NCBI GenBank assembly: GCA_015067825.1
Contig: SVLQ01000003.1
Span: 35,944-99,943, forward strand
DNA: 64,000 nucleotides
Source of the DNA: Oscillospiraceae bacterium
GTDB lineage: Bacteria > Bacillota > Clostridia > Oscillospirales > QAMX01
Direction: 5' to 3'
Of the stretch, positions 1 through 58,762 are shown one piece after another; the first letter of the stretch is position 1, and the number at the start of each line of letters is the position of its first letter. The position numbers and the translations under genes were made by a program. A model generated the notes under the pieces. It ran no database searches. It was given only the letters and a program-made list of their open reading frames with translations, and was not told the origin of the DNA.

Positions 1-1603
1 GTGCACGGCGGCCGTCCGGCGTGGGGCCGACGCGTGTGCCCTGATATTCATAGCGCGAGAACTGGTGCTCGGTGAGCAGGCAACCGTCGATGAATGCGAC
101 GGGCTTTTTGTTGCGGAACGCCATGTAAACGCGCGTGGCAAACGCCGAAGCCAACTCGTCGGCCTTTTCGTTATCCACACCGTAGCACGGGCAAGTTTTC
201 AAAACCGCAAACAGCGCCGCATCTTCGGCCTTGAGCTTGGCGAGGAACTCCTCCGCGCCAAACATCTTCTTCTCGAAAACGAGGTCGCGCACGGCCAAAA
301 GCGAGTCGATCGCGTTGATCAGGCCGCTTTCGGACGATTGCGTCCACGTGTAACGCGCACCGCCGGCGTTGAAGTCGAGCCCTTTGTCGATACAGTCGTC
401 GGTCAGAAGCGTGCGTACGGGATTGGGCAGATACTTCGCGTGATAGAGATATACTTCTAAAACACCGTCGAGGAATCGGTCGATATAACGCTCGACGTAA
501 GCGCAGAAACCTTCGTAGAACGCTTCAAACGACTCGGCCTCGGTGAGGTGGGCGTGCATGTATTCTTCAAAGAGCAGGAGCAGGGGAACGTCGTCGTCGG
601 TGCCGCCGGCGCGGGTCACGCCCTGAAACACCGTTTCGGTGCAGCCGCAGCCGCAGAAAAGCTCCAGGTCTTCTGCCGAAATTTGGGGGAATCGGTCGTG
701 GAGCATCGCTTTGATGCCGTTGATGTTATAGAAGGAGGGGTGTGTGCTGCCGTTTTTTAAGTTTTCGATCGCCAGATCCCAGATCTCCTGCGGCATCTCC
801 GGACGAACCAGCAATTCGAGCATCGGACGGCGCTTCTTGCCGATCGCGCGGAGCGCCTGCTTGGTGATCTCGTTGTATCCGTTGGTGCCGATCGTACACG
901 ACCAGTTGTCCACGGCTTCAAGGTTATCAAACAGCTCGGCGATCGCCTCGGTCAGGTCTTCGCCTCGGTAGAGATCGGCAAGACCGTCATCTAAGCAGCC
1001 GAGGTTGTCGCCGTTATCGAAGTGGAAAATCATGTTCCACGCGACCAAACCCTGATAATAAGTCTCTGCCGGGGCAAACGGCACGCGCTCCAGCGCTTCG
1101 ATCAGCTCGGCCGGTGCGTTGACCGATCGCAGGTACTCCACGCTGCGGTGGATATAGCCTTCAAACGCGTCGATCAGCGCGAGCAGACCTTCGCGGAATT
1201 CCTCGTTTTCCTGCTTGCGGATGCGCTCGCGGTACGAGGCAAGGCCTTCGCGCACGATACGCTTGTAGTTGGGGGTCGAATGTGTCCATCCGCGCTGCAT
1301 ATGGCTCAGATCGTAGAATTCACGCAGCGCCTGCGCAGCTGAGGCATCTTTGGCCTCCAGTTTGTCCCAGTCGATGTCGTACGTCTTTGCAAACTGCGGG
1401 CACACAGCACAGCCGGAGCAGAAGAATCGGCGGTAGGAGGGGTAGAGCTTATCACCGGGGACGTACTCGGCCGGTGGCAGCTGTTCGAAAAAACGAGCAT
1501 TTGCAATGGCGTGGCGGTAAAAATAACCTTTTTCGGGTGCTTCAAACAAACCGGCGGCATAGGGCTCGCCGATTTCATAAAACTTGGCGGCAATGGCGTT
1601 CAT
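1..1603 (-). CDS. Glycyl radical enzyme (PFL-like fold), N-terminal ~534 codons; the 3' end runs off the left edge
   Basis: Absent from the ORF track because there is no stop in the window. Manual translation from ATG (complement 1601-1603; RBS GGGAGAG 7 nt upstream) gives MNAIAAKFYEIGEPY... It contains ...RPMLELLVRPEMP..., ...THPSFYN..., the Cys loop FCGCGCTETVFQG and ...GPTPDGRRA at the edge, which resemble GRE core motifs. Confidence 0.75.
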   Translation of the reverse strand, partial: MNAIAAKFYEIGEPYAAGLFEAPEKGYFYRHAIANARFFEQLPPAEYVPGDKLYPSYRRFFCSGCAVCPQFAKTYDIDWDKLEAKDASAAQALREFYDLSHMQRGWTHSTPNYKRIVREGLASYRERIRKQENEEFREGLLALIDAFEGYIHRSVEYLRSVNAPAELIEALERVPFAPAETYYQGLVAWNMIFHFDNGDNLGCLDDGLADLYRGEDLTEAIAELFDNLEAVDNWSCTIGTNGYNEITKQALRAIGKKRRPMLELLVRPEMPQEIWDLAIENLKNGSTHPSFYNINGIKAMLHDRFPQISAEDLELFCGCGCTETVFQGVTRAGGTDDDVPLLLLFEEYMHAHLTEAESFEAFYEGFCAYVERYIDRFLDGVLEVYLYHAKYLPNPVRTLLTDDCIDKGLDFNAGGARYTWTQSSESGLINAIDSLLAVRDLVFEKKMFGAEEFLAKLKAEDAALFAVLKTCPCYGVDNEKADELASAFATRVYMAFRNKKPVAFIDGCLLTEHQFSRYEYQGTRVGPTPDGRRA

Positions 1604-1701
1604 ATCAAAAACTCTCCCTTGTGCGGATTGTGGACAAAATAAAGTATTGTGTTCTAATTATACCATATCCCGTACGGAATACAAGCCGATGATCAAAAAA
1701 A

Positions 1702-2736
1702 CTACGGTCGGATCGCAACTTTTATTACGCCGTCTTTCCGGGCTTCAAAAAGCTCGTAGGCCGCGTCGATCTCTGCGAGCGGATAGGTGTGGGTGATGAG
1801 CGGGAGGGTGTCGAGTTTTCCTTCTGCGATCAGCGCAAGGATCTCGCCGCAGTCGCAGCCGTCGACACCGCCGGTCTTGAAGGTGAGGTTCTTGCCGTAC
1901 ATCTCCGGCAACGGCAGGATCTGTGGCGCGTTATATAGTGCAACGACCACGACCGTCGCGTTTGGCCGTGCACATTCCCACGCGAGGCGGAAGGTATTGT
2001 CTGCACCTGCGACCTCAAATACGACGTCGGCCCCGCCGCGATCGCAGTATTTCGCGATATGGCTGCGGCAATCCTCGGGCGAAACGACATCAACGGTGGG
2101 GTAATGTGCCCGGATGAAGGCCTGCCGCTCCGCGTCTTTTTCGCAGACGATGATTTGTGCGGGCGAGCGGAGCATCGCGCAGAGCAGCGTGCAAAGGCCG
2201 GTAGGCCCTGCTCCGATGATCAGAACCGTGTCGTCGGGGCGGATTTCGGCGATCTTCGCCGCCCAAAAGCCGGTGGCGAGTACGTCGCCTGCCAAAAGAG
2301 CCTGCTCGTCAGAGACCGTGTCCGGGATCTTCGTCAGCCCTTGATCCGCCAACGGCACGCGCACGTATTCGGCCTGCCCGCCGTCGATGCGGCAGCCGAG
2401 CGCCCAACCGCCGTTTTCGTCGGTGCAGTTGTTGACGAATCCGCGCTTGCAGAAAAAGCAATCGCCGCAGAATGTCTCGACGTTGACGGCGACGCGGTCG
2501 CCGGGACGAACCGTGTGCACCTCGCTGCCGACCACCTCGACGATCCCGACCATCTCGTGGCCGACGGTGATTCCGGGGACGGCGCGCGGAACGCTGCCGT
2601 GCTTGATGTGCAGATCGCTCGCGCAGATGGAGGCGAGCGTTACTTTGACGATTGCATCGCGCGGAGAAGCTAAAACAGGCCGTTCTTTTTCGGTCAGAGC
2701 AAATTGATGGGGTGCGAGATATGTATAAGCGAGCAT
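1702..2736 (-). CDS. Zn-dependent alcohol dehydrogenase (MDR family)
   Basis: 344 aa. Has GHEMVGIVEVVG (GHE zinc motif), a Cys-rich structural Zn loop (CGDCFFCKRG) and the Rossmann motif GAGPTGL. RBS GAGGGA. Confidence 0.9.
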   Translation of the reverse strand: MLAYTYLAPHQFALTEKERPVLASPRDAIVKVTLASICASDLHIKHGSVPRAVPGITVGHEMVGIVEVVGSEVHTVRPGDRVAVNVETFCGDCFFCKRGFVNNCTDENGGWALGCRIDGGQAEYVRVPLADQGLTKIPDTVSDEQALLAGDVLATGFWAAKIAEIRPDDTVLIIGAGPTGLCTLLCAMLRSPAQIIVCEKDAERQAFIRAHYPTVDVVSPEDCRSHIAKYCDRGGADVVFEVAGADNTFRLAWECARPNATVVVVALYNAPQILPLPEMYGKNLTFKTGGVDGCDCGEILALIAEGKLDTLPLITHTYPLAEIDAAYELFEARKDGVIKVAIRP

Positions 2737-2834
2737 GGTGATCCCTCGTTTTGTTTGGTATGGTTTTATTATAGCAGATTCGAAACAGATTGCAAGTACC
2801 GGAAAATACCGCGGGGAAGACCGGAAAACAAAGT

Positions 2835-2863
2835 TTTACAACCGCGCAAAAATGTAGTATAAT
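2835..2863 (+). promoter_or_regulatory. sigma-A-type promoter for the GH2-GRE operon
   Basis: TTTACA (2835-2840), 17-nt spacer, TATAAT (2858-2863), about 33 nt upstream of the GH2 start. Confidence 0.6.
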
Positions 2864-2895
2864 GTTAGGGAGAACTCGGAAAGGGTGATGCGCAC

Positions 2896-4644
2896 ATGAA
2901 AAAACCAATGCCTCGGTTTTGCCGGCTGCAGACGCCGTTTGAAGCGCCGACCGCCGAAAGCTGGTCGGAGGTCCATCCGCGCCCGCAGATGCGGCGGGAT
3001 TCGTGGCAGAGCTTGTGCGGTACGTGGTCGCTTGCGCTCGAACACGGCGGCAGCGAAACTGCCGTGGGTGAGATCGCCGTACCGTTTCCGCCGGAATCGC
3101 GCATCTCCGGGATCGAACGTCCGCTTGCGCCGTCCGATGCATGGGTCTATCGGAAACGCTTTGCTTTAACGGATGATTTGTGCGGGAAAAATGTGTTACT
3201 CCACTTCGGCGCAGTCGACCAACGCTGCGAGGTTTGGCTCAACGGAAAACCTGTGGGCGAACACGTCGGCGGCTATCTGCCGTTTTCGTTCGATATCACC
3301 GCCTGTTTGCAGCCAGGCGAAAACGAACTGAAGGTCGCCGTCTATGATCCGCTCGATCCCGCTCTCGGCTACGGCAAGCAATGCCGGAAACGCGGCGGCA
3401 TGTGGTACACGCCGATCAGCGGCATTTGGCAGCCGGTCTGGCTGGAGGGTGTGCCCCAAAACCATATCCGTTCTCTGCGTATTACGCCGACAATGACTTC
3501 CGCCGCCATCGAAACCGTCGGCGGAGCGCTCGAAAAAACGCTGGTCCTCCACACAGACGAAGGCGATCTCTCGTATTCCTATACGGGTGACCGATTCGTG
3601 CTCTCTCCGAAATCCCCGAAGCTTTGGTCGCCGGAATCGCCGTATCTTTACCGCTTTACGCTTCTTTCCGGCGATGACCGCGTGGAATCCTATTTTGCTC
3701 TGCGCACCGTCAGCATTGAGACCGCACGCGGACAGGCGTATCTCTGCCTGAACGGAAAACCGCATTTCTTCCACGGCCTGCTCGACCAAGGCTACTACAG
3801 CGACGGGATCTATCTGCCGGCCTCTCCCGAAGGATACCGGTTCGACGTGCTGGAAATGAAACGGCTCGGCTTCAATATGCTGCGCAAACACATCAAGATC
3901 GAACCCGACCTCTTTTACTACTACTGCGATCTTTACGGGATGGCGGTGTTCCAGGACTTGGTCAACAGCGGAAAATACAGCTTTTTCTACGACACCGCGC
4001 TGCCGACGATCGGCTTCAAGCGTCTGCCGCAGCACCGCGCAGATAAACGCCGCAGAGCCGCCTTTTACCGCGAGGCCGAAGCCACCGTCGAAACGCTCTA
4101 TAACCATCCGTCGGTTCTCTGTTATACGATCTTTAACGAGGGTTGGGGCCAGTTTGACGCCGACAACGTTTACGCGCGGATGAAAACGTTGGATCCGACG
4201 CGCCTGTGGGATGCGACGTCCGGTTGGTTTTGGAAAAAGCAGAGCGACATTTCCAGCGAACACGTCTATTTCAAAAAGATCCGCATGAAAAAAAGCCCCG
4301 ATCGTCCGCAAGTCCTTTCGGAGTTCGGCGGTTACGCCTGTAAAATTGAAAACCATTCGTTTAACCCCGACAAAACCTACGGTTACCGCAAGCTTGCGAC
4401 GAAAACGGAATTCCAGACCGCCTTGGCCGAGCTCTACCGCAGCGAGGTCATACCGGCGATCCATTCGGGACTCGGTGCGGCCGTGCTTACGCAGGTCAGC
4501 GACGTCGAGGACGAGACCAACGGACTTGTGACCTACGACCGTCAGGTTACCAAAGTCGAACCTGTGGCCATGCAGCAACTGGCCGCCGAAATATTTGCGG
4601 CGTTTGCCGAAACGACCGCCGAAGAAAAGAGGGGATCGCTGTGA
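2896..4644 (+). CDS. Glycoside hydrolase family 2 (beta-galactosidase/beta-glucuronidase-like)
   Basis: 582 aa. Sugar-binding domain signature NVLLHFGAVDQRCEVWLNGKPVGEHVGGYLPFSFDIT; acid/base region NHPSVLCYTIFNEGWG; nucleophile region VLSEFGGYA. Confidence 0.85.
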   Translation: MKKPMPRFCRLQTPFEAPTAESWSEVHPRPQMRRDSWQSLCGTWSLALEHGGSETAVGEIAVPFPPESRISGIERPLAPSDAWVYRKRFALTDDLCGKNVLLHFGAVDQRCEVWLNGKPVGEHVGGYLPFSFDITACLQPGENELKVAVYDPLDPALGYGKQCRKRGGMWYTPISGIWQPVWLEGVPQNHIRSLRITPTMTSAAIETVGGALEKTLVLHTDEGDLSYSYTGDRFVLSPKSPKLWSPESPYLYRFTLLSGDDRVESYFALRTVSIETARGQAYLCLNGKPHFFHGLLDQGYYSDGIYLPASPEGYRFDVLEMKRLGFNMLRKHIKIEPDLFYYYCDLYGMAVFQDLVNSGKYSFFYDTALPTIGFKRLPQHRADKRRRAAFYREAEATVETLYNHPSVLCYTIFNEGWGQFDADNVYARMKTLDPTRLWDATSGWFWKKQSDISSEHVYFKKIRMKKSPDRPQVLSEFGGYACKIENHSFNPDKTYGYRKLATKTEFQTALAELYRSEVIPAIHSGLGAAVLTQVSDVEDETNGLVTYDRQVTKVEPVAMQQLAAEIFAAFAETTAEEKRGSL

Positions 4645-6770
4645 CGTTCTATACCGCATCCGAAACCCCGCGTCCGATCCGTTTGTCGGAGCCGACGCGC
4701 CGCTTTGCCTACGACTCGCTGCACCACCGTTACGGGCTGGATACCCGCAAGGTTCCCGCCGTCAGTCTGGATTCGGTCGAAGGCATCGAGACCATGACCG
4801 ATCTTGACCGCTACGATGCCGCGATCCGTGCGATTGCCCTGCACGCGCCGATCCGTATCTGCGAGGGCGAACGCCTGAGCGGGGCGGCGACGCTGGGGCT
4901 GGCGATCGACCATGCCGTCCCTGCCACGATCGGCGGAAAGCCCGTCTGCCACAGTATCAGCCACCTGACGATCGACTTTTTTGATGTTTTGCGCATCGGC
5001 TGCGACGGGATCATCGACAACATCCACGCGTCCATGCAAACGCATACCCAACCGCGAGAGGTACGCTTTTTGGAAAGCGCACTTTCGTGCATGGAGAGCC
5101 TGAAGATCTGGCACGGGCGCTATCTGGAAGCGCTGCAGGATCGGGCTGAATACCGTGCAAACTACGAGGCGCTGTGCCGCGTGCCGTTTGCGCCGCCGCG
5201 CAGCTTTTACGAAGCCGTGCAGAGTGTTTGGTTTATCTTTGCTTTCGTGCGTCTGTGCGGCAACTGGCCGGGCATCGGCCGACTGGATGCAATGCTTGGG
5301 CCGTACCTGCAGCGCGATCTGGCTGCCGGTGCGCTCACGCGGGATGAAGCCCGCGAGATCCTCGCACACTTTCTGATCAAAGGCTGCGAATGGATCACCG
5401 GCACTTCCAACGGCAGCGGCGATGCCCAACATTATCAGAACCTTGTCCTTGCCGGTGTGGATGAAAACGGCGTTGAAGTCACCAACGACGTGACCTATCT
5501 GCTTTTGGAACTGATCGAGGAGCTTGGCATCAGCGATTTTCCGATCACGCTGCGCCTCCGCGAAGATTCGCCGCCAGAGCTCCTGACGGCTGCGGCCGAA
5601 GTCATCCGGCACGGCGGCGGTGTGGTCGCGGTCTACAACGAAGACCTCATTATTGAATCCCTTGTGAACTACGGCTATCCTCTCGCCGATGCCCGACGGT
5701 TTGCCAACGACGGCTGCTGGGAGGTACAGATCCCCGGCGAGACCTGCTTTTCCTATGCCGCATTTGACGGTTTGGAGATCCTGCAGTCGGTCACGCTCGG
5801 CGGCTATGCCGAAGGTGTCGACTACCCAACCTATGAGGCACTTTACAACGCATTTATCCGCGATCTTTCCGCGCGCGTGGGTAGAATCTGCCGCGAGTGG
5901 ATCGACCGGCGGCTGGAGATCGGGGAAGACCGCAGCGTTTCGTGGAAACCGCAGGGAACGTGCACACTTGTATCTCTGTTTGAGCGCGGTTGTATCGCCA
6001 AGGCTAGGTCCTATCTGGAAGGCGGCCCGAACCACACGGTCTATTCGCCGCATATCGGCGGCTTGGCCGACATTGTCAACAGCCTGTACGCAATCCGAAA
6101 GCTGGTCTACGAAGAAAAACGCCTCTCTTTGCCTGAGCTTCTGGCGATCCTGCGCGAAGACTGGGCCGGAAACGAAGAGCTGCGCCGCCATGCTGCCGAA
6201 AAGTACCGCTACTTCAGCAACGATAACGATGCGGTCGATGCGATTGCCGTGCAGCTGCTCGCCGATTTTTCTGCCGCCTGCCGTGCTGTCGACGGATTTG
6301 GCGCGGTCAAATTTCCGGCCGGTGTCAGCACGTTCGGCCGTCAGCTGGAGTGGGCGCCGCACCGCTTTGCCACGCCGTTTGGCAAGCACAAAGCGGCCGT
6401 TCTGGCGGGGAACTGCTCTCCGACGCCGGGGACGGATAAAGAAGGCGCGACCGCCATTATCCGTTCCTATTGCAAAGCCGACCTCAGACTGCAGCAGAGC
6501 GGTGCCGCGCTGGATCTGCGTCTGATGCCGCGCGACGTCGCCGGTGAGGCGGGACTGCAGACGTTGGTCGGTCTGATCCGCGGATTTCTGGCGCTGGGTG
6601 GATTCTTCCTGCAGCCCGACGTGGCCGATGCCGCCGAACTGCGGCGCGCGCAGGCCGATCCGGAAAACTATCCGACGCTTTCTGTGCGCATTTCCGGCTG
6701 GAATGCGCGCTTTGTCACCCTGCAGAAAGAGTGGCAGGATATGATCATCGCACAAATGGAAAAAGCGTGA
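4641..6770 (+). CDS. Glycyl radical enzyme, eliminase-like (709 aa)
   Basis: The GTG start overlaps the GH2 stop (GTGA, 4641-4644). Core motifs: NLVLAGVDENG..., ITLRLREDSP, GGGVVAVYNED, Cys loop NDGCWEVQ. C-terminal glycyl-radical fingerprint: PENYPTLSVRISGWNARFVTLQKEWQDMII. Confidence 0.85.
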   Translation: MTFYTASETPRPIRLSEPTRRFAYDSLHHRYGLDTRKVPAVSLDSVEGIETMTDLDRYDAAIRAIALHAPIRICEGERLSGAATLGLAIDHAVPATIGGKPVCHSISHLTIDFFDVLRIGCDGIIDNIHASMQTHTQPREVRFLESALSCMESLKIWHGRYLEALQDRAEYRANYEALCRVPFAPPRSFYEAVQSVWFIFAFVRLCGNWPGIGRLDAMLGPYLQRDLAAGALTRDEAREILAHFLIKGCEWITGTSNGSGDAQHYQNLVLAGVDENGVEVTNDVTYLLLELIEELGISDFPITLRLREDSPPELLTAAAEVIRHGGGVVAVYNEDLIIESLVNYGYPLADARRFANDGCWEVQIPGETCFSYAAFDGLEILQSVTLGGYAEGVDYPTYEALYNAFIRDLSARVGRICREWIDRRLEIGEDRSVSWKPQGTCTLVSLFERGCIAKARSYLEGGPNHTVYSPHIGGLADIVNSLYAIRKLVYEEKRLSLPELLAILREDWAGNEELRRHAAEKYRYFSNDNDAVDAIAVQLLADFSAACRAVDGFGAVKFPAGVSTFGRQLEWAPHRFATPFGKHKAAVLAGNCSPTPGTDKEGATAIIRSYCKADLRLQQSGAALDLRLMPRDVAGEAGLQTLVGLIRGFLALGGFFLQPDVADAAELRRAQADPENYPTLSVRISGWNARFVTLQKEWQDMIIAQMEKA

Positions 6771-6783
6771 GAAGGAGAACCGT

Positions 6784-7194
6784 ATGATCCGAGAAATCAT
6801 CAAAGATCCGCTCTTTCTGGCCCGAAAATCTCTCCCGGCGACGGCGCTTGATCTGCCGGTCGCCCGCGATCTGCGCGATACGCTTGCGGCGCATCGTGCG
6901 GGCTGCGTTGGGATGGCGGCCAACATGATCGGCGTTTTAAAGCGAATCATCATTTTTGCCGACGGATTGAGTGCAACGGTGATGCTCAATCCGGAGATCA
7001 CCAAAAAGACCGGTCCCTACGAGACCGAAGAGGGCTGCCTTTCGCTGGAGGGTGTGCGCCCGACTACGCGCTTTCAAACGATCCGCGTGCGCTATCAGGA
7101 CGAATCCATGCGCACCCAAACCAAACAGTATGCCGGCTTTGCCGCACAGGTGATCCAGCACGAGATCGACCACTGCGACGGCATTCTGATCTGA
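6784..7194 (+). CDS. def: Short peptide deformylase-family protein (136 aa)
   Basis: EGCLS and QHEIDH metal motifs are present. Motif 1 reads CVGMAANMIG, with Met where the canonical Gln sits. RBS GAAGGAGA. Confidence 0.8.
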   Translation: MIREIIKDPLFLARKSLPATALDLPVARDLRDTLAAHRAGCVGMAANMIGVLKRIIIFADGLSATVMLNPEITKKTGPYETEEGCLSLEGVRPTTRFQTIRVRYQDESMRTQTKQYAGFAAQVIQHEIDHCDGILI

Positions 7195-7209
7195 ACGAGG
7201 AGGAAGCAT

Positions 7210-7974
7210 ATGATCGTATATTTTTCCGGCACCGGCAACAGCCGCTACTGCGCCGAATTTTTGGCCGACCAACTCGGCGACGAGCTGCTCGACAGCCGAA
7301 ACTACATCAAGCACCAAATTGCCGCCGAGCTGATCAGCGGAAAACCGTGGGTATTTGTCGCGCCGACCTATGCCTGGCAGATCCCGCAGGTCTTTGCCGA
7401 CTTTATCCGCACGGGCGAATTCAAGGGCGATGACCGCGCATGGTTCTGCCTGACCTGCGGCAGCGAGATCGGCGCGGCAAGCGAGATGCTTATAAAGCTC
7501 TGCGAAGAAGTCGGTCTCCGGTATATGGGTGTCGTTCCGGTCGAAATGCCCAACAACTACCTGTTTGGAAACGTGCCCGAAAAAGCCGAGGCCGTGGAGA
7601 TCATCCGCGCGGCACGGCCGGTTCTTGCCAGGGCGGCGGAGTGGATCGCGGCGGGCAAAGCGTTCCCGCAGGCGAGCCTGTCGGCCGCCGATCGGCTGAA
7701 ATCGCGCCTGATCGCGCCCTTGTTTGCCAAATATGCCGCCCAACCGAAGAAATTCCGTGTCAGCGATGCGTGCGTGTCGTGCGGGAAGTGCGAAGAAGCT
7801 TGTCCGCTCGGCAATATTCGTCTGGAAAACGGCCGTCCGGTTTGGGGCGAGCGCTGTGCGCAGTGCCTTGCGTGCATCGGCGTCTGCCGCAAACAGGCGA
7901 TCAACTACGGCAAATCGACTGCGGGCAAGCGGCGCTATTTCTGTGATCTGCACCATAAGGAGACCGAACGATGA
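7210..7974 (+). CDS. Flavodoxin-like domain + 2x[4Fe-4S] ferredoxin domain protein (EFR1-like)
   Basis: N-terminus MIVYFSGTGNSRYCAEF (flavodoxin-type loop). C-terminus CVSCGKCEEACP and CAQCLACIGVC cluster motifs. RBS GAGGAGGAAG. Confidence 0.75.
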   Translation: MIVYFSGTGNSRYCAEFLADQLGDELLDSRNYIKHQIAAELISGKPWVFVAPTYAWQIPQVFADFIRTGEFKGDDRAWFCLTCGSEIGAASEMLIKLCEEVGLRYMGVVPVEMPNNYLFGNVPEKAEAVEIIRAARPVLARAAEWIAAGKAFPQASLSAADRLKSRLIAPLFAKYAAQPKKFRVSDACVSCGKCEEACPLGNIRLENGRPVWGERCAQCLACIGVCRKQAINYGKSTAGKRRYFCDLHHKETER

Positions 7975-9233
7975 AACCGTATACCGACGTTGCCGCTGCA
8001 CTGATCTGGGACGGCGATCGATTTCTGATCTGCCGCCGGCCGGCGCACAAATCGAATGCGCTTCTGTGGGAATTCGTCGGTGGAAAGGCGGAACCGGGCG
8101 AAACGCTGGAGGAAACTTTGATTCGCGAGTGCCGCGAGGAGCTTGCGATCACGGTCGAACCGCGGGAACCGTTCATGCAGGTGATGCACACCTATCCCGA
8201 TATCACCGTACGGCTGACGCTTTTCAATGCCGTGATCACAGAGGGCGAACCGCAGATGCTCGAACACAGCGATCTCCGCTGGATCACACCGGCCGAGATC
8301 CCGGAATATGATTTTTGCCCGGCCGATAAGGATATTTTGCGCGAAATCATGCGGCGTGCAGGTTGTTTGCCGAAGGAAGAGTATAAGATCGGAATGTCGA
8401 TCGCGCCGAGGGCGTTTGACCCGGCAAAAGCTAAGGAACACGAGAGAAGGCTTGCCGAAGAATTCGGCGGAATGGATGCACTGCTTCGAACCCTAAAGGA
8501 GCTTGGGGCAACACACGTAGAACTGCGGACGGTCTCGCCCAACGCCGACGGCGAAGCGATGCTTGCCGTTGCCAAACGGATTTGGGAGGCCGGACTCAAG
8601 ATCACCGTCCACGGTTCGCTTCCCGAAACGATCGGCAGGTTTGAAACCGTCTATCCCTCGCTTATGCAGATTCTCCGTGAGGCAAAGGCGCATCAGAATT
8701 TTGTCAACATTACTGTTCACGCCTACAGTTCAGAAGACGACACCGACGTCGCAAAATTTGCCACCGACACCAAGCGCATCTTGTCTCTTTGGGCAGAAGA
8801 TGCCGAGCACTTGGGTTATCGGCTTGCGCTCGAGAATAACCGCAGGAAAGGCGAGTACGATCCCGGCAACAGCTGCGAGGGTGTTTTGGAGATGCTGCCG
8901 GATCGCGCCGACTTGGTCGGTTCGTGCTTCGATTTCGGCCACTATTATTACAACATGCTCTATAACGACGGCACGCCCGACAAAATGCCGCCCGAGGCAT
9001 TTCTGCACCGCGCATTCCATACCCATATCCACGCCCTCTGCGAAAAGAAAACGCATTTTCCGCTCGTCAAAGGCTCGGTCATGCCGCTCGAATGCTATGT
9101 GAAAGCACTCAAAAAGGCCGGATATAAAGGCGTTTTCAATATGGAGATCAACGTCGAACGCTTTCCGGAGCTTCCGTACCGCGAGACCATTATCGCTTCA
9201 CTGCAGGCTCTGCGTGCGGCAGTTGAACAGTAA
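7971..9233 (+). CDS. Fusion protein: MutT-type Nudix hydrolase (N-terminal ~130 aa) + xylose-isomerase-like/AP-endonuclease-2-like TIM barrel (C-terminal ~290 aa)
   Basis: ATGA overlap with the upstream gene. Nudix box GGKAEPGETLEETLIRECREELAI. The C-terminal part carries TIM-barrel metal-ligand-like ALEN, CFDFGH, THIHA and NMEIN motifs. Confidence 0.75.
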   Translation: MKPYTDVAAALIWDGDRFLICRRPAHKSNALLWEFVGGKAEPGETLEETLIRECREELAITVEPREPFMQVMHTYPDITVRLTLFNAVITEGEPQMLEHSDLRWITPAEIPEYDFCPADKDILREIMRRAGCLPKEEYKIGMSIAPRAFDPAKAKEHERRLAEEFGGMDALLRTLKELGATHVELRTVSPNADGEAMLAVAKRIWEAGLKITVHGSLPETIGRFETVYPSLMQILREAKAHQNFVNITVHAYSSEDDTDVAKFATDTKRILSLWAEDAEHLGYRLALENNRRKGEYDPGNSCEGVLEMLPDRADLVGSCFDFGHYYYNMLYNDGTPDKMPPEAFLHRAFHTHIHALCEKKTHFPLVKGSVMPLECYVKALKKAGYKGVFNMEINVERFPELPYRETIIASLQALRAAVEQ

Positions 9234-35002: not shown

Positions 35003-36349
35003 TTACACCTCAATCTGTTCTTTGGCCCAGCCGCAGTCGGCGTAGGTGTTGCCCTCAAAGCTCACTCTGCGCAGCATGGTGGCCGTTTCCGTGCGGGATC
35101 CGCTGAATTTCGACCAGGGGAAGGTCACCGCGCCAAAGGCTTGGGCGCAGCCCAAAACGGAGCTGATGTGTTCTTTTAACGTGTGCCAGGTCGTCAGCAT
35201 TACGCCGAACATGGCGTTTTGTTCGACCGTTTGGATGTGGGCGCAGTAATTGTCGCCGTCGTACCAAGGCGCACCGATCACGTCTCTGCCGCAGTCTTTC
35301 AAAGAGAGCAACGAGGGGACGGGGACGTCGCAGCAATCGTACTGCCAATCCACGAACACCGAGGATTTTGCGGTGGCATTGCGGAGGGCTTCGACCTCGT
35401 CTTTTTCCCCGGAGGAATAGCAATCTTTGAAAATACCTTTCTCCAATAGCATATCCATCCACAGCATCGGCCGCCGTCCTTCGGTCTCGACTTCGTGGGT
35501 CAGGCGGGCGAGATAACCGGGCAGTTCTTGGCGGAGTGCCGGATTTCGGGAGATATAATCGGCCTCATCGCACCCGATATGGATGAACTCGCTGTCGGGA
35601 AACACCTCGTAAAGCTCGGCCCGAACCTGCTTCAAAAGCGAGAACACCCGCTCGGACGAAATGTTCCAAGCCCAACCGTCCGGCGTAAAGAGATGGCCAA
35701 GACGCGGGTTTTGATCGAGCACAACGTGCTTGCCGTAGCACACGCGGGAAGCCGACGCATGGCCGAGCTGGTTAAACATCGGGATAGCTTCGAGCCCAAG
35801 CTCTCGGCATTCCTTGGCCAGCTCCTTTGCCGCTTCTTTGGGGAAAGCGTGCGGCCACGCCAACTCCTGCAGGCAATCGTATTGCAGCATCCCCCAAAAC
35901 TCGAACACGATATGCGTGTACTGGCAAAGAGCCGCAAGACGGGTAAGCTTTTTGATATAGTACAAATCGTTTTCCGGGAAAATGCAGATATGGATCATGC
36001 GGTTGGCGAGCCTGTAATTGCTTTCTTCTGTGACGTATCGGATCTTCAGCGCGGTTTCGTCCGGTTCGATCTTCATCAGCAGCGACAGAAAACCGTGCAT
36101 CAGTCCGCGGTAGTCTTTGCCGACGATCGCGATCCCGCACTCGTCGACGGTCAACGCGTATTCCTTTCCGTCGGGAAGCGCGGGCAACTGCGTACTGCCA
36201 ACGCGAAACGTGGCGTCTTCGCCCGGTTCAAATTCGATTTCGCCGGCTGTCAGCGTAAAGCTGTTCCAAAGCTTTCGGACCGTTTCGTTCTGCATGCGTT
36301 CGTCGGCAACAGCAACGGTTTTGTTATTCAAAAACAGATAATTATTCAT
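35003..36349 (-). CDS. GH20-like glycoside hydrolase (beta-N-acetylhexosaminidase-like)
   Basis: 448 aa. N-terminal EYALTVDECGIAIVGKDYRGLMHGFLSL; EAIPMFNQLGHASA; FIHIGCDEA (D-E catalytic pair position). The canonical HLTDD block is not obvious. Confidence 0.55.
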   Translation of the reverse strand: MNNYLFLNNKTVAVADERMQNETVRKLWNSFTLTAGEIEFEPGEDATFRVGSTQLPALPDGKEYALTVDECGIAIVGKDYRGLMHGFLSLLMKIEPDETALKIRYVTEESNYRLANRMIHICIFPENDLYYIKKLTRLAALCQYTHIVFEFWGMLQYDCLQELAWPHAFPKEAAKELAKECRELGLEAIPMFNQLGHASASRVCYGKHVVLDQNPRLGHLFTPDGWAWNISSERVFSLLKQVRAELYEVFPDSEFIHIGCDEADYISRNPALRQELPGYLARLTHEVETEGRRPMLWMDMLLEKGIFKDCYSSGEKDEVEALRNATAKSSVFVDWQYDCCDVPVPSLLSLKDCGRDVIGAPWYDGDNYCAHIQTVEQNAMFGVMLTTWHTLKEHISSVLGCAQAFGAVTFPWSKFSGSRTETATMLRRVSFEGNTYADCGWAKEQIEV

Positions 36350-36444
36350 CTAAAAGCCACCTCTCGTGAGCCAGTATGTACCGCTATTATAGCACATCGC
36401 CCCCAAAAAGTAAATCAACCGGGATATTGAGAGACGGAATCGTA

Positions 36445-36480
36445 TAAAAAGAGATCCCCGCGCACAAAAGGCGCGGGGAT
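36445..36480 (-). terminator. Intrinsic terminator after the small membrane protein gene
   Basis: CCCCGCGC (36456-36463) / GCGCGGGG (36471-36478), with a T-run on the minus strand. Confidence 0.7.
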
Positions 36481-36484
36481 ACTT

Positions 36485-36904
36485 TCATACGTTATAGAAT
36501 TTAACGTGCCAGATCGCCGTAAAGAGGATGCCGATGGCAAGGAAGATAAGTCCTGTTACCAAAATACAGTGGCTGCTTTGCTTTTTGGATTTGCTGAGCT
36601 TGCGCGCACGGTAATCGGCGTATTTCTCGTGTTTCATTCTGCCCATCGGAATGAAGGTGAGCACAACGTTTCGGAGAATAAACCCAATCCCAAGGAGCGC
36701 GCCTTCGCCGCTGATGTACAGCATGCCGGCAAACAGCGTCATCAGTATGCCGGAAACGAAGAAAGCGTCAGAGAGGATCTGGACGTTTACCGCAGCCCTG
36801 TCCGTGAAGAAGCCCTTCGACCAGATCACGAGGAAGGCGATAAACACCTCGATGCCAACACAAATCGCGTATTTTGTTAACGTTGCTTTGGTTTTATCGT
36901 TCAC
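36485..36904 (-). CDS. Small membrane protein (DUF3899-like?)
   Basis: 139 aa, 3-4 hydrophobic helices. The family call is by impression only. Confidence 0.4.
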   Translation of the reverse strand: MNDKTKATLTKYAICVGIEVFIAFLVIWSKGFFTDRAAVNVQILSDAFFVSGILMTLFAGMLYISGEGALLGIGFILRNVVLTFIPMGRMKHEKYADYRARKLSKSKKQSSHCILVTGLIFLAIGILFTAIWHVKFYNV

Positions 36905-36926
36905 TTTGCTTTAACCATCCGTCCTG

Positions 36927-38195
36927 TTACTTGACTTGCTGCTTGTATCTCGCTTCTTCCGCATCGTTGCACTGCACGAAGTGTCCCGGCGTGATCTCGC
37001 GGAACGACGGCGCATCGACCGAATAATCGTGCTCTGCGATGGGATTGTAGTGGATTCTCGTGCGCTGCTTTTCGTACACGGGGTCGGGCAGGGGGATCGC
37101 GGAGAGCAGCGACTTCGTGTACGGGTGCAGGGGATTCTTGAAGAGCTCGTCGGAATCGGCCAGCTCGACCATCTTACCGAAGTACATAACGCCGATACGG
37201 TCGGAGAAGTATTTAACAACCGACAGGTCGTGCGCGATGAACATAATGGTGAGCCCCAGGCGTTCGCGGAGATCGTTGAGCAGGTTGATGACCTGCGCCT
37301 GGATCGAAACGTCGAGCGCGGAGATCGGCTCGTCGGCGATGATCATCTCGGGCTGCATGACGACCGCTCGCGCGATACCGATGCGCTGGCGCTGACCGCC
37401 GGAGAATTCGTGCGGATAGCGGTCGGCGTGTTCACGCACGAGACCGACCGTCTCGAGGATCTCGTAGACCTTTTCGTTGATGTAATCCTTGTCGGTGATC
37501 CCGTTGATCACGAGACCTTCGGCAATGATATCACGGACGGTCATACGGGGGTCGAGAGAAGCGATCGGATCCTGGAAGATCATCTGGATCTGGGTGATGA
37601 GCTTAGACTTTTTCGCAACGCGGCAGCGGCTTTTGTATTCCTTGTGCAGCGCTTTGAGCTGGGCTTCATCGCCCTTGGCAGCCTCAAATTTTTCGGCGTA
37701 TTCGGCTTCCAGCGCCTTGAGCTGGGCTTCCGCATGCTGCTTGTCAACCTGCTTGCTGTCGGACTTGGCGTCTTTGATCAGCGCACGGTTCTTGGCAACG
37801 GTATCGTCGAGATCCTTTTTGATCTGCTGGATCTCTGCCTGGATGGCCGCTTTTCTCGCAGCATCCTCGGTCTTTTCGGCGCGGAGCGCCTTGATTTTCT
37901 TGGAAGCATCGGACTTGGCGGCAGAAATCGCATCCTGATAGGAGCGGATACCGGCACCGATTCGCTGCCCTTTGAAGTAGACGTTACCGGAGGTTGCGTT
38001 GTACAGCTTGATGATGGATCGACCGGTCGTGGTCTTACCGCAGCCGGATTCACCGACGAGACCAAAGGTTTCGCCCTTGTGAACCTCAAAACTGACGTCG
38101 TCGACGGCTTTCAGGTCTTTGTGGCCCAGACGGAAATACTGGCAAAGGTGGTCCACTTTCAGCAAAACTTCGCGTTTATTCTCCATGGTTGCCAC
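36927..38195 (-). CDS. oppF: Opp/Dpp-family ABC ATPase (OppF-like) with a ~115-aa insertion
   Basis: Walker [10 protein letters not shown]; Q-loop IQMIFQDP; signature [14 protein letters not shown]; Walker [12 protein letters not shown]; C-terminal oligopeptide-ABC domain. Lys/Glu/Ala-rich helical insert at aa ~81-195. Confidence 0.88.
37647..37730 (-). repeat. Internal 21-nt direct repeat inside the OppF insertion
   Basis: CAGCGC(T/C)TTGAGCTGGGCTTC at 37647-37667 and 37710-37730 (1 mismatch, 63 nt apart). It encodes EAQLKAL twice, 21 aa apart. Confidence 0.8.
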
Positions 38196-40407: not shown

Positions 40408-40409
40408 GC

Positions 40410-41990: not shown

Positions 41991-41992
41991 AA

Positions 41993-43000: not shown

Positions 43001-43235
43001 AGGTTTTTCTCCTCTGTTTTTGTTGTTTTCCAATTCATATAGTGTTCGAGCCTAAAAAGGAGTTGTCCGTAAAGATCTGTGCGCACTGCCAAAACGACGT
43101 TTAAAACCTGCGACTAATAGTTTTTCTGATTCTTTTGCAGGGGATAACAGGGGATTTGCGACTCTCTATCTTCGTAACAGTCTTATCTTTCACTATGGCA
43201 ATTTTGTGGATTTCCGTGCTCTTTTTAATGTCTAA

Positions 43236-43282
43236 CAATGCCAAACCAGCGGTGAGCAAAATGCTCACCGCCGTTGGCATTG
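43236..43282 (-). other. Strong imperfect hairpin in the oppA-oppB intergenic region (candidate attenuator or mRNA stabiliser)
   Basis: CAATGCCAAaCcaGCGGTGAGCA / TGCTCACCGCcgtTGGCATTG. There is no clear U-tract. It sits within a 290-bp untranslated gap. Confidence 0.45.
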
Positions 43283-43323
43283 GTTAGATAGTTAGATTAA
43301 TCTAAGCAATCAGTTACCTGAAA

Positions 43324-45852: not shown

Positions 45853-45901
45853 TGTTTTCTCCTCCTGTGAAGAATATTTTTTCTTGTTATCCAAGCAGTC
45901 A

Positions 45902-58520: not shown

Positions 58521-58656
58521 TTCTTTCTTCAAAATTGCGAAGAAATCGCCGTCTTCCTGCAGGAGGCACACGTTGATGGGGGGGGGCAGAACAAACGTTT
58601 TAATCAAAACTTCACAGAAATGTATAAAAACATTTGTTCTTTTTCGGAGAGAGGTG

Positions 58657-58665
58657 TGGTATAAT
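58657..58665 (+). promoter_or_regulatory. Extended -10 promoter for the radical-SAM/DUF4130 pair
   Basis: TGgTATAAT at 58657-58665, about 97 nt upstream of ATG 58763. Confidence 0.5.
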
Positions 58666-58762
58666 AACTGTACAAATGTTCGACAATGCAAATCACTGTC
58701 CGTTTTATGGACAAATGGCTGTGTTATACTATGGACAAGCAAAGCAAACGGAGGCGGGAAAG

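What the first reader, a model, noticed from the sequence alone, without database searches (positions are those of the whole stretch)
1..6770. Two glycyl-radical-enzyme paralogs bracket a Zn-ADH and a GH2 glycosidase; GH2 and GRE are translationally coupled and no activase is visible
Seen in the sequence:
- The minus-strand gene 1..1603 (manual translation) and the 709-aa gene 4641..6770 both show PFL-like GRE core motifs.
- The complete GRE ends ...PENYPTLSVRISGWNARFVTLQKEWQDMII. This aligns with the glycyl-radical fingerprint (RVxG-aromatic-x-A-x-F) of characterised GREs.
- Both carry a Gly-Cys-x-Glu thiyl loop: GCWE in the 709-aa protein and GCTE in the truncated one.
- They flank a Zn alcohol dehydrogenase and a GH2 glycosidase. 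The GH2 stop and GRE start overlap (GTGA, 4641-4644).
- No PflA-type radical-SAM activase occurs anywhere in the 64 kb.

Established knowledge:
- The Cys-x-Glu arrangement is the one used by the 1,2-eliminase class (B12-independent glycerol/propanediol dehydratases, choline TMA-lyase, hydroxyproline dehydratase).
- 709 aa is short relative to the roughly 800-850 aa of characterised eliminases.

Inference: this may be a pathway in which a glycoside is hydrolysed, the released polyol or amino-alcohol undergoes radical elimination, and the aldehyde product is reduced by the ADH. Neither the substrate nor the reason for a second paralog can be read from the sequence.
Basis: partly seen in the sequence, partly recalled or inferred. 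Interest (0 to 1): 0.7.

Follow-up and report, generated by a model that had tools for sequence, protein, structure and literature searches.

The report
Two orphan compact glycyl radical enzymes
The window carries two intact but uncharacterised, unusually short glycyl radical enzymes from different families with no activating enzyme nearby; their pairing with a sugar-cleaving enzyme and an alcohol dehydrogenase occurs only in this lineage, so it is not evidence of a shared pathway.

Summary
Window 1..1603(-) is the N-terminal 534 aa of a 656-aa glycyl radical enzyme (GRE656). Window 4641..6770(+) is a complete 709-aa one (GRE709). Both have the PFL-like barrel, a canonical glycyl loop and a Cys-x-Glu loop. 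The GH2 stop and GRE709 start overlap (GTGA). No activase lies in the 64 kb or in about 4.9 kb of the same locus recovered beyond the window's left edge.

The two proteins are only 25% identical and fall far below every curated cut-off, so they represent two unannotated clades.

The proposed GH2 -> GRE -> ADH pathway is not conserved. In 80 other species, GRE709 orthologues typically sit as AraC regulator / GRE / activase (activase 51 of 70, AraC 43 of 72). A GH2 directly upstream occurs in 0 of 80. GH2-GRE709 recurs only in a 94%-identical relative. None of the 11 GRE656-family loci from other organisms has an ADH directly upstream or an activase within about 7 kb, but they lie unusually often beside glycoside hydrolases of varied families.

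Best reading: two divergent operons juxtaposed in one lineage, each encoding a compact eliminase/isomerase-class GRE that is activated in trans. The substrates are unknown and possibly carbohydrate-derived. This is a reasonable enzyme-discovery target but not a surprising finding.

The parts
1..1603 (-). GRE656: N-terminal 534 aa of a 656-aa compact glycyl radical enzyme, cut by the window edge. The Cys loop CGCTE lies at 635-649 (C321, E323). The probable His164 equivalent is H108 in GWTHSTPNY. The glycyl loop VRVGGYS lies beyond the window.
   Evidence: Translation. Full-length sequence from L001. Pfam PFL-like and Gly_radical. AF2 pLDDT 88 with Foldseek TM about 0.83 to glycerol dehydratase 1r8w. 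Codon check.
1604..1701 (-). 98-bp spacer between ADH and GRE656. It holds a Shine-Dalgarno-like AAGGGAGAG before the ATG and a possible internal promoter (TTGTAT-16-TGgTATAAT on the minus strand).
   Evidence: Read directly from the sequence. The promoter-like site falls below the scanner threshold, so it is my own reading.
1702..2736 (-). Zn-dependent medium-chain alcohol dehydrogenase, 344 aa, upstream of GRE656 on the same strand.
   Evidence: Pfam ADH_N and ADH_zinc_N. Nearest solved structures are 5yln (1e-64) and 4cpd, annotated alcohol dehydrogenase (6e-57). All NCBIfam equivalogs are below cut-off.
2737..2895 (.). Divergent intergenic region with two promoter-like sites. On the plus strand, 2835-2863 (TTTACA-17-TATAAT, 11 of 12 matches) faces GH2. 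On the minus strand, 2795-2768 (TTGCAA-16-TATAAT with a TG extension, 10 of 12) faces ADH.
2896..4644 (+). GH2 glycoside hydrolase, 582 aa, of the beta-D-galactofuranosidase-like subgroup. Motifs resembling the catalytic acid/base (FNEGWG) and nucleophile (LSEFGG) are present.
   Evidence: Pfam GH2 N, middle and TIM-barrel domains. PDB 7sf2 2e-100 and beta-D-galactofuranosidase 9j6n 7e-91. Motifs read from the translation; their catalytic role was not checked by alignment to a characterised GH2.
4641..6770 (+). GRE709: complete 709-aa compact glycyl radical enzyme. The GTG start overlaps the GH2 stop (GTGA). Key residues are H108, Y265, C359-W360-E361 (5715-5723), Y372 and G686 (6696-6698) in VRISGWNARF.
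   Evidence: Pfam. Family alignment. Profile alignment to glycerol dehydratase 1r8w. AF2 pLDDT 83 with Foldseek TM about 0.8. Listed residues invariant in 81 of 81 sequences. Codon checks.
6784..9233 (+). Tightly packed downstream genes, probably co-transcribed with GH2-GRE709: peptide deformylase (6784-7194), EFR1-family flavodoxin/2x[4Fe-4S] ferredoxin (7210-7974), and a NUDIX plus xylose-isomerase-like TIM barrel protein (7971-9233). Intergenic gaps are 13, 15 and -4 bp.
   Evidence: The same gene order occurs in the 94%-identical relative L143. No strong terminator-like site lies in the short gaps between these genes.

Best explanation
The region holds two divergently transcribed operons, each carrying one member of a different, functionally unannotated clade of compact glycyl radical enzymes.

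Catalytic machinery (shown):
- Both enzymes keep the full radical machinery of the Cys-x-Glu class, which comprises the 1,2-eliminases and isomerases.
- This machinery is a C-terminal glycine that stores the radical, a Cys-loop cysteine that abstracts a substrate hydrogen, and a glutamate two residues later that deprotonates a substrate hydroxyl.
- GRE709 also keeps a histidine (H108) at the position of the general acid His164 of glycerol dehydratase.

Inferred reaction: each enzyme probably performs radical C-O (or C-N or C-S) cleavage next to a hydroxyl on a small hydroxylated metabolite, giving a carbonyl product.

Inferred activation: because neither gene has a neighbouring activase, the glycyl radical must be installed in trans by a radical-SAM activase encoded elsewhere in the genome.

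Gene arrangement (shown): the normal home of GRE709 orthologues is a self-contained AraC regulator / GRE / activase module. Here the gene has been relocated behind a GH2 gene and in front of housekeeping genes, an arrangement seen only in near-identical relatives.

Conclusion: the GH2-GRE709 and ADH-GRE656 pairings are lineage-specific juxtapositions, not a conserved glycoside -> radical elimination -> reduction pathway. The substrates are unknown. A carbohydrate-derived substrate is plausible, mainly for GRE656.
For: Fold and motifs:
- Pfam domain hits for both proteins.
- AF2 models score pTM 0.87 and 0.89 and match all solved GRE eliminases and isomerases at TM about 0.8.
- Profile alignment to glycerol dehydratase maps H164 to H108, Y339 to Y265, C433 to C359 and E435 to E361, and the glycyl loop RVAGY to RISGW (G686).
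- These residues are invariant in 81 of 81 family members, including the 20 that lack an adjacent activase (19 other species plus the window). Those members are scattered over the tree.

Distinct clades:
- The best NCBIfam scores are 275.6 bits against the 678.2 cut-off of the broad PFL2-3 subfamily, and 232 against 1100 for HypD.
- The two proteins are 25% identical to each other.

Size of the GRE709 family:
- More than 2,400 clusters (90% identity) match at E<=1e-10, and the 120 best-scoring ones listed are about 700-746 aa, mostly 704-716.
- Relatives occur at 563 sites in a collection holding one genome per species; the 80 best loci kept all come from uncultured Clostridia MAGs.

Gene context:
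- An activase lies directly downstream in 51 of 70 GRE709 loci, and a divergent AraC regulator upstream in 43 of 72. No other neighbour recurs in more than 5 of 80 loci, and a GH2 directly upstream occurs in 0 of 80.
- GH2-GRE709-def-EFR1 recurs only at 94% identity.
- The window's close GRE656 relatives (55-74% identity) have no ADH directly upstream and no activase within about 7 kb.

Literature: a 2026 review states that the CXE motif is shared by eliminases and isomerases and that entire GRE clades remain unannotated (PMC13450708).
Against: - No activase could be located, because the rest of the genome is not available. Trans-activation is therefore inferred, and activases are generally thought to be partner-specific.
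- The 4-bp GH2/GRE709 overlap with a good Shine-Dalgarno site shows that the two proteins are co-expressed in this lineage, which could reflect a real, recently evolved functional link.
- ADH directly upstream of GRE656 matches the classic eliminase-plus-reductase logic.
- Substrate-contact residues differ from every characterised enzyme. The His281/Ser282 loop of glycerol dehydratase is replaced by CGNWPGIG, and Asp447 by Tyr372. The reaction class is therefore inferred from three or four catalytic residues only.
- The GRE709 glycyl loop is modelled with low confidence (pLDDT below 50 for residues 676-694).
Confidence: 0.7

Rival explanations
1. GH2 hydrolyses a glycoside, GRE709 (and/or GRE656) performs a radical 1,2-elimination on the released polyol or amino-alcohol, and the Zn-ADH reduces the resulting aldehyde. 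The four genes would then form one catabolic unit.
For: - The GH2 stop and GRE709 start overlap, with a Shine-Dalgarno site upstream.
- ADH lies directly upstream of GRE656.
- The two operons share one 159-bp divergent promoter region.
- The ADH resembles solved zinc alcohol dehydrogenases more than polyol dehydrogenases.
- A few AE-less GRE709 loci in other species have other glycosidases nearby, such as a GH78 directly upstream in L046.
- GRE isomerases acting on sugar derivatives exist (PflD, YbiW).
Against: - A GH2 directly upstream of GRE709 occurs in 0 of 80 other species. The only conserved neighbours are AraC and the activase.
- The arrangement recurs only at 94% identity.
- No ADH lies directly upstream of GRE656 in any of the 11 related loci.
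- ADH and GH2 are on opposite strands in different operons.
- The GH2 is closest to galactofuranosidases, whose product enters ordinary galactose metabolism.
Confidence: 0.12
2. GRE656 is the carbohydrate-linked enzyme. Its family acts on a sugar-derived metabolite, such as a deoxy- or anhydro-sugar, a sugar alcohol or a diol, that is produced downstream of many different glycosidases. In this genome the Zn-ADH is its redox partner. GRE709 would then be an unrelated passenger.
For: - Ten of the 11 GRE656-family loci examined (55-74% identity) have a glycoside hydrolase within a few genes.
- Five have one as an immediate neighbour: GH31 in L093, GH3 in L094, BNR/sialidase-like plus GH29 in L141, GH5 in L134, and DUF4838/GH67N in L144. 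The GH2 in L135 and the GH28 in L145 lie two genes away.
- Xylose-isomerase-like TIM barrels (AP_endonuc_2), GFO/IDH/MocA dehydrogenases and PF12831 FAD oxidoreductases also recur in these loci.
- By a rough count of mine from the gene tables, about 5% of genes are GHs in the fully annotated GRE709 contexts, against about 15% in GRE656 contexts.
Against: - The sample is small and the loci are not phylogenetically independent.
- The GH families all differ, so no single pathway is indicated.
- These organisms are glycan degraders with many GH genes.
- No transporter, kinase or aldolase recurs.
- The enrichment estimate is hand-counted, not a formal test.
Confidence: 0.3
3. The two GREs are decaying or non-radical relics. 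Having lost their activases, they are no longer activated and persist as pseudo-enzymes.
For: No activase lies in 64 kb or in the left flank. All examined loci of the window's close GRE656 relatives also lack an adjacent activase.
Against: - Both ORFs are intact.
- G686, C359, E361 and H108 are invariant in all 20 AE-less GRE709 sequences, which are scattered over the tree.
- The GRE656 family keeps G631, C321 and E323 invariant across 24 members at 58-98% identity.
- GRE709 has a good Shine-Dalgarno site and sits in a tight operon.
Confidence: 0.05

Closest known systems
B12-independent glycerol dehydratase (C. butyricum DhaB1, PDB 1R8W/1R9D) and GRE 1,2-propanediol dehydratase (R. inulinivorans, PDB 5I2A/5I2G; also 9RCO)
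   Same: - These are the best sequence and fold matches for both proteins. The profile E-value for GRE709 is 1e-93, with TM about 0.8.
- They share the 10-stranded barrel, the RxxG-aromatic glycyl loop and the G-C-x-E Cys loop.
- In GRE709 the counterparts of the general-acid His (H164/H166 to H108) and of Tyr339 (Y265) are kept.
- In most species the GRE709 partner activase is about 299 aa with two ferredoxin-like clusters, as expected for this class.
   Different: - Identity is only 18-25%.
- The proteins are 80-190 aa shorter, mostly through N-terminal deletions.
- The His281/Ser282 substrate loop is replaced by CGNWPGIG, and Asp447 by Tyr372.
- The residue between Cys and Glu is Trp in GRE709 and Thr in GRE656, whereas it is Val in the solved enzymes shown in the alignments.
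- No 1,3-propanediol dehydrogenase or microcompartment genes are nearby.
- There is no adjacent activase here.
GRE isomerases PflD and YbiW (1,5-anhydromannitol-/1,5-anhydroglucitol-6-phosphate to 1-deoxyfructose-6-phosphate) and HplG
   Same: They share the CXE motif and fold (TM about 0.8). They act on sugar-derived substrates, which fits the carbohydrate-rich neighbourhoods of the GRE656 family.
   Different: - The NCBIfam PflD equivalog scores 216 bits against a cut-off of 1109.
- No PTS, kinase or aldolase genes are nearby.
- The phosphate-binding residues were not examined.
trans-4-hydroxy-L-proline dehydratase HypD (PDB 6VXC)
   Same: This is the best single PDB sequence hit for GRE656 (1.8e-37). 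The Cys loop aligns as SGCVETG against CGCTETV. It is a gut Clostridia GRE whose product enters central metabolism without a dedicated partner enzyme.
   Different: Scores against the HypD equivalog are 69-232 bits against a cut-off of 1100. Identity is about 20%. No P5C reductase lies nearby.
TIGR01774 PFL2/PFL3 'formate C-acetyltransferase/glycerol dehydratase family' GRE subfamily
   Same: It is the top NCBIfam hit for GRE709 (8.4e-82) and covers residues 105-707.
   Different: The score is 275.6 bits against a trusted cut-off of 678.2. GRE656 scores only 70.7 bits on its truncated sequence. By the curated threshold neither protein is a member.

Membership tests
Glycyl radical enzyme superfamily (PFL-like) | PFL-like ten-stranded alpha/beta barrel | tested here: met
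   PF02901 scores 3.4e-80 for GRE709 and 4e-38 for GRE656. The AF2 models align to more than 40 solved GREs at TM about 0.8.
Glycyl radical enzyme superfamily (PFL-like) | C-terminal glycyl radical domain with an R-[VI]-x-G-[FYW] loop | tested here: met
   PF01228 scores 1e-17 and 1.3e-17. The loops are RISGW with G686 and RVGGY with G631. Both are invariant in their families.
Glycyl radical enzyme superfamily (PFL-like) | Catalytic cysteine on the Cys loop | tested here: met
   C359 aligns with C433 of glycerol dehydratase and C438 of propanediol dehydratase. C321 of GRE656 aligns with the HypD Cys loop.
Glycyl radical enzyme superfamily (PFL-like) | Cognate radical-SAM activating enzyme encoded with the GRE | tested here: not met
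   There is none in the 64-kb window and none in about 4.9 kb of the same locus beyond its left edge. The feature is met in relatives: 51 of 70 GRE709 orthologue loci have an activase directly downstream. Whether this genome encodes one elsewhere cannot be tested here.
GRE 1,2-eliminase / isomerase class | C-x-E motif on the Cys loop, with the glutamate as base for a substrate hydroxyl | tested here: met
   GCWEV and CGCTE are aligned to the CXE of GD, PD and HypD. The motif definition comes from PMC13450708.
GRE dehydratases (GD, PD, HypD) | General-acid histidine equivalent to GD His164 | tested here: met
   H108 of GRE709 aligns with H164 of GD and H166 of PD, and is invariant in 81 of 81 sequences. 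For GRE656 the assignment of H108 in GWTHSTPNY rests on motif resemblance only, so it is inconclusive.
B12-independent glycerol / propanediol dehydratase | Substrate-binding residues His281/Ser282 and Asp447 (GD numbering, from my own knowledge of the GD structure papers) | tested here: not met
   The His-Ser loop is replaced by CGNWPGIG, which is two residues shorter, and Asp447 aligns with Tyr372.
NCBIfam equivalogs: HypD, CutC, HpsG/HpfG, PflD, indoleacetate decarboxylase, HPAD, PFL | Score at or above the curated cut-off | tested here: not met
   GRE709 scores 76-232 bits against cut-offs of 994-1150. GRE656 (truncated) scores 36-71 bits.
GH2 beta-D-galactofuranosidase-like glycosidases (the neighbouring gene) | GH2 domain set with catalytic acid/base and nucleophile glutamates | tested here: inconclusive
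   The GH2 N, middle and TIM-barrel domains are present. The protein scores 7e-91 to Galf-ase 9j6n and 2e-100 to 7sf2. The FNEGWG and LSEFGG motifs are present but were not mapped onto a characterised GH2 catalytic pair. Substrate specificity was not tested.

The most novel reading that the evidence does not exclude
GRE709 is the founding example of a large, previously unrecognised clade of compact glycyl radical enzymes. Relatives were found at 563 sites in a collection holding one genome per species, and the 80 best loci all come from uncultured gut and rumen Clostridia. The clade has its own AraC regulator and activase, and it may catalyse a radical dehydration or isomerisation not yet described, possibly on a plant-glycan-derived metabolite. 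GRE656 would be a second such clade, embedded in glycan-degradation loci and always activated in trans.
Probability: 0.35. Interest if true: 0.65.

Novelty: new member of a known kind. Interest (0 to 1): 0.45.

Why it matters
Glycyl radical enzymes carry out difficult anaerobic chemistry in gut microbes, including trimethylamine, H2S, p-cresol and skatole formation. A 2026 review states that whole clades still have no assigned function.

- **A defined target.** This window points to two such clades. For GRE709 the work defines a clean three-gene module (AraC regulator, GRE, activase) that could be cloned from many MAGs and screened.
- **A corrected context.** The local GH2/ADH arrangement should not be used to choose candidate substrates.
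- **Open questions.** Repeated loss of activase adjacency with full retention of the catalytic residues raises the question of how promiscuous GRE activases are. If GRE656 proves to act on a sugar-derived compound, it would add a radical step to glycan fermentation in ruminant and human guts.

Tried and rejected
- **Activase search.** I looked for an activase in the window by CxxxCxxC regex, tblastn and a custom HMM. Only ferredoxin domains of RnfB and the EFR1 protein matched.
- **Genome sequence further left.** The larger contigs that carry the ADH did not return DNA, so only 8-kb metagenome contigs were available.
- **Extra conserved neighbours of GRE709.** All-vs-all clustering of 654 neighbouring ORFs found nothing beyond AraC and the activase. 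Small clusters (GH78, SDR, PF12831 oxidoreductase, MatE) occur in at most 5 of 80 loci.
- **Pocket-based substrate prediction.** The prediction tool returns no coordinates, so only alignment-based residue mapping was possible.
- **Literature.** Searches for a characterised short GRE, or for GRE/glycosidase clusters, found nothing relevant.
- **Non-canonical aminoacyl radical enzyme (Ala/Ser/Thr in place of Gly; the class noted).** Rejected, because both proteins have the glycine.
- **YjjI-like family (my reading of PF11230).** This Pfam family is recorded for a few distant GRE656 relatives but did not hit a 98%-identical copy of the window's protein (P0121) at E<=0.01.
- **Rfam.** A scan of the whole window found no riboswitch or other RNA.
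- **Unused tools.** The third homologue search and the representative-library search were not run, because without genomic context they could not answer the open questions.

Full report
**Layout**

The left end of the window holds two divergently transcribed gene sets.
- On the minus strand, a Zn-dependent alcohol dehydrogenase (1702..2736) is followed after 98 bp by a PFL-like gene (1603..1) that runs off the window.
- On the plus strand, a 582-aa GH2 (2896..4644) is followed by a 709-aa PFL-like gene (4641..6770).
- The plus-strand set continues with gaps of 13, 15 and -4 bp into peptide deformylase, an EFR1-family flavodoxin/ferredoxin and a NUDIX/TIM-barrel protein.
- The 159-bp gap between ADH and GH2 contains the two best promoter-like sites of the region, one facing each way.

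The 'bracketing' is therefore two operons, ADH->GRE656 and GH2->GRE709->def->..., and not one unit.

**Checking the observation**

- GRE709 scores PFL-like 3.4e-80 and Gly_radical 1e-17 in Pfam. The truncated gene scores PFL-like 2.8e-39.
- Metagenome contigs that encode an identical ADH protein extend about 4.9 kb beyond the window's left edge. They show that the truncated gene is 656 aa and ends ...DLIVRVGGYSELFIRL. It is followed by a response regulator and a histidine kinase, not an activase.
- A 98%-identical protein scores Gly_radical 1.3e-17.
- The motif codons were verified: GCWEV at 5712-5726, RISGWNA at 6687-6707, and CGCTE at 635-649 on the minus strand.
- The GH2 TGA and the GRE709 GTG overlap as GTGA, with GAGGGG seven to twelve bases upstream.
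- The GTG start is credible. Almost all of the 120 best homologues listed cover at least 99% of the query, and the family alignment begins at residue 1, with M1 nearly invariant and F3 and Y4 invariant.
- No activase is present. A CxxxCxxC scan finds only a radical SAM + helix-hairpin-helix protein at 58.6-60.0 kb and RnfB. An HMM built from 53 activases found beside orthologues hits only the ferredoxin domains of RnfB and the EFR1 protein.

**What the two proteins are**

- They are 25% identical to each other, about as far apart as either is from any solved GRE (16-25%).
- Every curated NCBIfam model is missed by a wide margin. GRE709 scores 275.6 bits against the 678.2 cut-off of the broad PFL2-3 subfamily, and 232 against 1100 for HypD. 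CutC, HpsG/HpfG, PflD and the decarboxylases score lower still.
- AlphaFold models built from family alignments are confident (pLDDT 83 and 88, pTM 0.87 and 0.89). The GRE709 glycyl loop itself is poorly modelled.
- Both models superpose on essentially all solved eliminases, isomerases and decarboxylases at TM about 0.8. Propanediol and glycerol dehydratases rank first.

A profile alignment to glycerol dehydratase gives this residue map for GRE709:

| Glycerol dehydratase | GRE709 |
|---|---|
| His164 | H108 |
| Tyr339 | Y265 |
| Cys433 | C359 |
| Glu435 | E361 |
| RVAGY glycyl loop | RISGW (G686) |
| Asp447 | Y372 |
| His281/Ser282 loop | shorter CGNWPGIG loop |

In the solved enzymes shown in the alignments the residue between Cys and Glu is Val. 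It is Trp in GRE709 and Thr in GRE656.

The general catalytic apparatus of the Cys-x-Glu class is thus intact, but the substrate-contact residues match no known enzyme. A 2026 review (PMC13450708) notes that CXE is shared by 1,2-eliminases and by the newer isomerases (PflD, YbiW, HplG). The motif alone therefore does not fix the reaction type.

The short length comes mostly from the N-terminus. Compared with GD or PD, GRE709 lacks about 55-80 residues before the first barrel motif. Compared with HypD, GRE656 lacks about 130.

**How widespread the families are**

- GRE709 has more than 2,400 homologous clusters (90% identity) at E<=1e-10. The 120 best-scoring ones listed are about 700-746 aa, mostly 704-716, and the few that carry a name are called 'hypothetical protein'.
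- A scan of a collection holding one genome per species found 563 sites that encode a relative. The 80 best loci kept are all from uncultured Clostridia MAGs of ruminant, deer, pika and human guts.
- GRE656 has a smaller family, with 289 clusters at E<=1e-10 among the candidates scored.

**Genomic context: the test of the pathway idea**

*GRE709.*
- I searched the 80 GRE709 loci with the window's GH2, ADH, def and EFR1 proteins and with an activase and an AraC regulator taken from an orthologous locus.
- I also clustered all 654 neighbouring ORFs against each other.
- Only two neighbours recur. A roughly 299-aa activase with two ferredoxin-type clusters lies directly downstream and often overlaps the GRE (51 of 70 loci with enough flank). 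A divergent AraC-family regulator lies upstream (43 of 72).
- No other cluster occurs in more than 5 of 80 loci.
- A GH2 directly upstream occurs in 0 of 80. Three loci have a 30%-identical GH2 3-6 kb away on the other strand.
- The window's order GH2-GRE709-def-EFR1-NUDIX recurs only in a 94%-identical relative. The next closest relative (64%) has AraC-GRE-activase.
- Nineteen of the 70 loci lack an adjacent activase, as the window does. These are scattered over the family tree and keep H108, Y265, C359, W360, E361, Y372 and G686 without exception. This argues for trans-activation rather than decay.

*GRE656.*
- Eleven loci at 55-74% identity were examined. None has an ADH directly upstream or an activase within about 7 kb.
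- More distant relatives (37-42%) usually do have an activase directly downstream.

**What survives of the carbohydrate idea**

The GRE656-family loci are notable for their neighbours.
- GH31 lies directly upstream in L093, and GH3 is adjacent in L094.
- A BNR/sialidase-like protein lies upstream in L141, with GH29 downstream and GH95 nearby.
- GH5 is adjacent in L134, with GH43 nearby.
- A GH2 lies two genes away in L135.
- A DUF4838/GH67N protein lies directly downstream in L144, with GH16 and six xylose-isomerase-like TIM-barrel genes.
- L145 has GH28 and GH109-like genes.
- PF12831 FAD oxidoreductases, GFO/IDH/MocA dehydrogenases and amidohydrolases also recur.

A GH is the immediate neighbour in 5 of 8 informative loci. 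My rough expectation is 10-15%, given about 5% GH genes in the annotated GRE709 contexts. This is a hand count on a small, non-independent sample, and the GH families all differ, so I treat it as a lead and not a result.

A few AE-less GRE709 loci also have glycosidases or oxidoreductases in place of AraC, including a GH78 rhamnosidase directly upstream in L046, an SDR in L047, and PF12831 in L013, L040 and L046.

The window's GH2 is closest to beta-D-galactofuranosidase-type GH2 enzymes (9j6n, 7e-91) and contains FNEGWG and LSEFGG motifs that resemble the GH2 catalytic acid/base and nucleophile motifs. Its product would not obviously need a radical enzyme. The ADH resembles solved zinc-dependent alcohol dehydrogenases (5yln, 4cpd). 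It could reduce an aldehyde made by GRE656, but that pairing is unique to this lineage.

**Most likely mechanism**

Shown:
- Both proteins have the GRE fold, glycyl loop, thiyl cysteine and CXE glutamate.
- GRE709 also has the dehydratase histidine.
- Orthologues of GRE709 normally travel with their own activase and an AraC regulator.

Inferred:
- An activase encoded elsewhere installs the glycyl radical. The radical passes to Cys359 (or Cys321 in GRE656), which abstracts a hydrogen from a carbon bearing or adjacent to a hydroxyl.
- Glu361 (or Glu323) deprotonates that hydroxyl. A vicinal leaving group, most likely OH protonated by His108, departs, and the product radical retakes the hydrogen to give a carbonyl compound.
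- GRE709 modules carry no conserved aldehyde-handling partner or microcompartment. This hints that the product is a benign ketone or a central metabolite, as with HypD or the isomerases, and not a toxic aldehyde. This point is speculation.

**Comparison with known systems, and novelty**

Both enzymes work like the GRE eliminase/isomerase class and meet its tested defining features, apart from the adjacent activase. They fail membership of every characterised family that could be tested. I therefore file them as new members (two unannotated clades) of a known kind.

The field already recognises that many GRE clades are unassigned, so their existence is not surprising. Three things are useful:
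- the definition of the conserved AraC-GRE-activase module for the large GRE709 clade;
- the evidence that the local GH2/ADH context is misleading;
- the possible glycan link of the GRE656 clade.

**Limits**

- The rest of the genome was not available, so the activase question remains open.
- No tree with the characterised enzymes was built, because their sequences could not be imported. Clade separation rests on HMM scores and pairwise identities.
- Pocket analysis was limited to alignments.
- The GH enrichment is not a formal statistic.

Noticed in passing
window 7210-7974 (+): An EFR1-family protein (flavodoxin-like domain plus 2x[4Fe-4S]; NF038196, 1e-73) lies two genes downstream of GRE709 in the same tight operon. 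In my recollection, flavodoxins and ferredoxins are the usual reductants of GRE activases, so it could supply electrons for activation. It may equally be a housekeeping neighbour of def.
   Followed up: no
window 7971-9233 (+) versus L143 5394-6676: In the window, NUDIX and the xylose-isomerase-like TIM barrel (AP_endonuc_2) form one 420-aa ORF. In the 94%-identical relative they are two separate genes of 133 aa and 282 aa. This is either a gene fusion in one lineage or a frameshift or annotation difference in the other.
   Followed up: no
window 1604-1701 (-): The 98-bp ADH-GRE656 spacer contains a possible extended -10 promoter (TTGTAT-16-TGgTATAAT on the minus strand), which falls below the scanner's threshold. 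GRE656 may therefore be transcribed independently of ADH.
   Followed up: partly
L013, L040, L046 (GRE709 loci); L141, L145 (GRE656 loci): PF12831 FAD-dependent oxidoreductases (416-764 aa) recur within a few kb of members of both GRE families in unrelated genomes. No known link to GRE chemistry is apparent.
   Followed up: partly
L144 1-15843: A GRE656-family gene sits among six xylose-isomerase-like TIM-barrel (AP_endonuc_2) genes, an aldehyde dehydrogenase, a GH16 and a DUF4838/GH67N protein. This is an unusually dense sugar-isomerase/epimerase-like cluster.
   Followed up: no
L083 6256-12124; L038 8390-16987; L099; L116: Some genomes place two or three different GRE families side by side, sometimes with a single activase between them. 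This is consistent with one activase serving more than one GRE.
   Followed up: no
L089 1269-3868 and L001 5425-7828: A response regulator/histidine kinase pair homologous to the one downstream of GRE656 (47% and 37% identity) lies directly upstream of an AE-less GRE709 orthologue in another species, at the position where other loci have the AraC regulator.
   Followed up: no
window 35003-45894 (-): An Opp-type ABC transporter operon has an unusually large solute-binding protein (856 aa) and a 743-aa ATPase carrying an insertion, next to a GH20-like gene. This region has lower GC (0.48-0.54) than the rest of the window.
   Followed up: partly
window 58628-60028 (+): A radical SAM + helix-hairpin-helix protein (CQYNCAYC motif) is the only radical-SAM gene in the window. 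It is not a GRE activase.
   Followed up: yes
window 1-64000: No Rfam family reaches its gathering score on either strand of the whole 64 kb, so there is no tRNA, riboswitch or other known RNA.
   Followed up: yes
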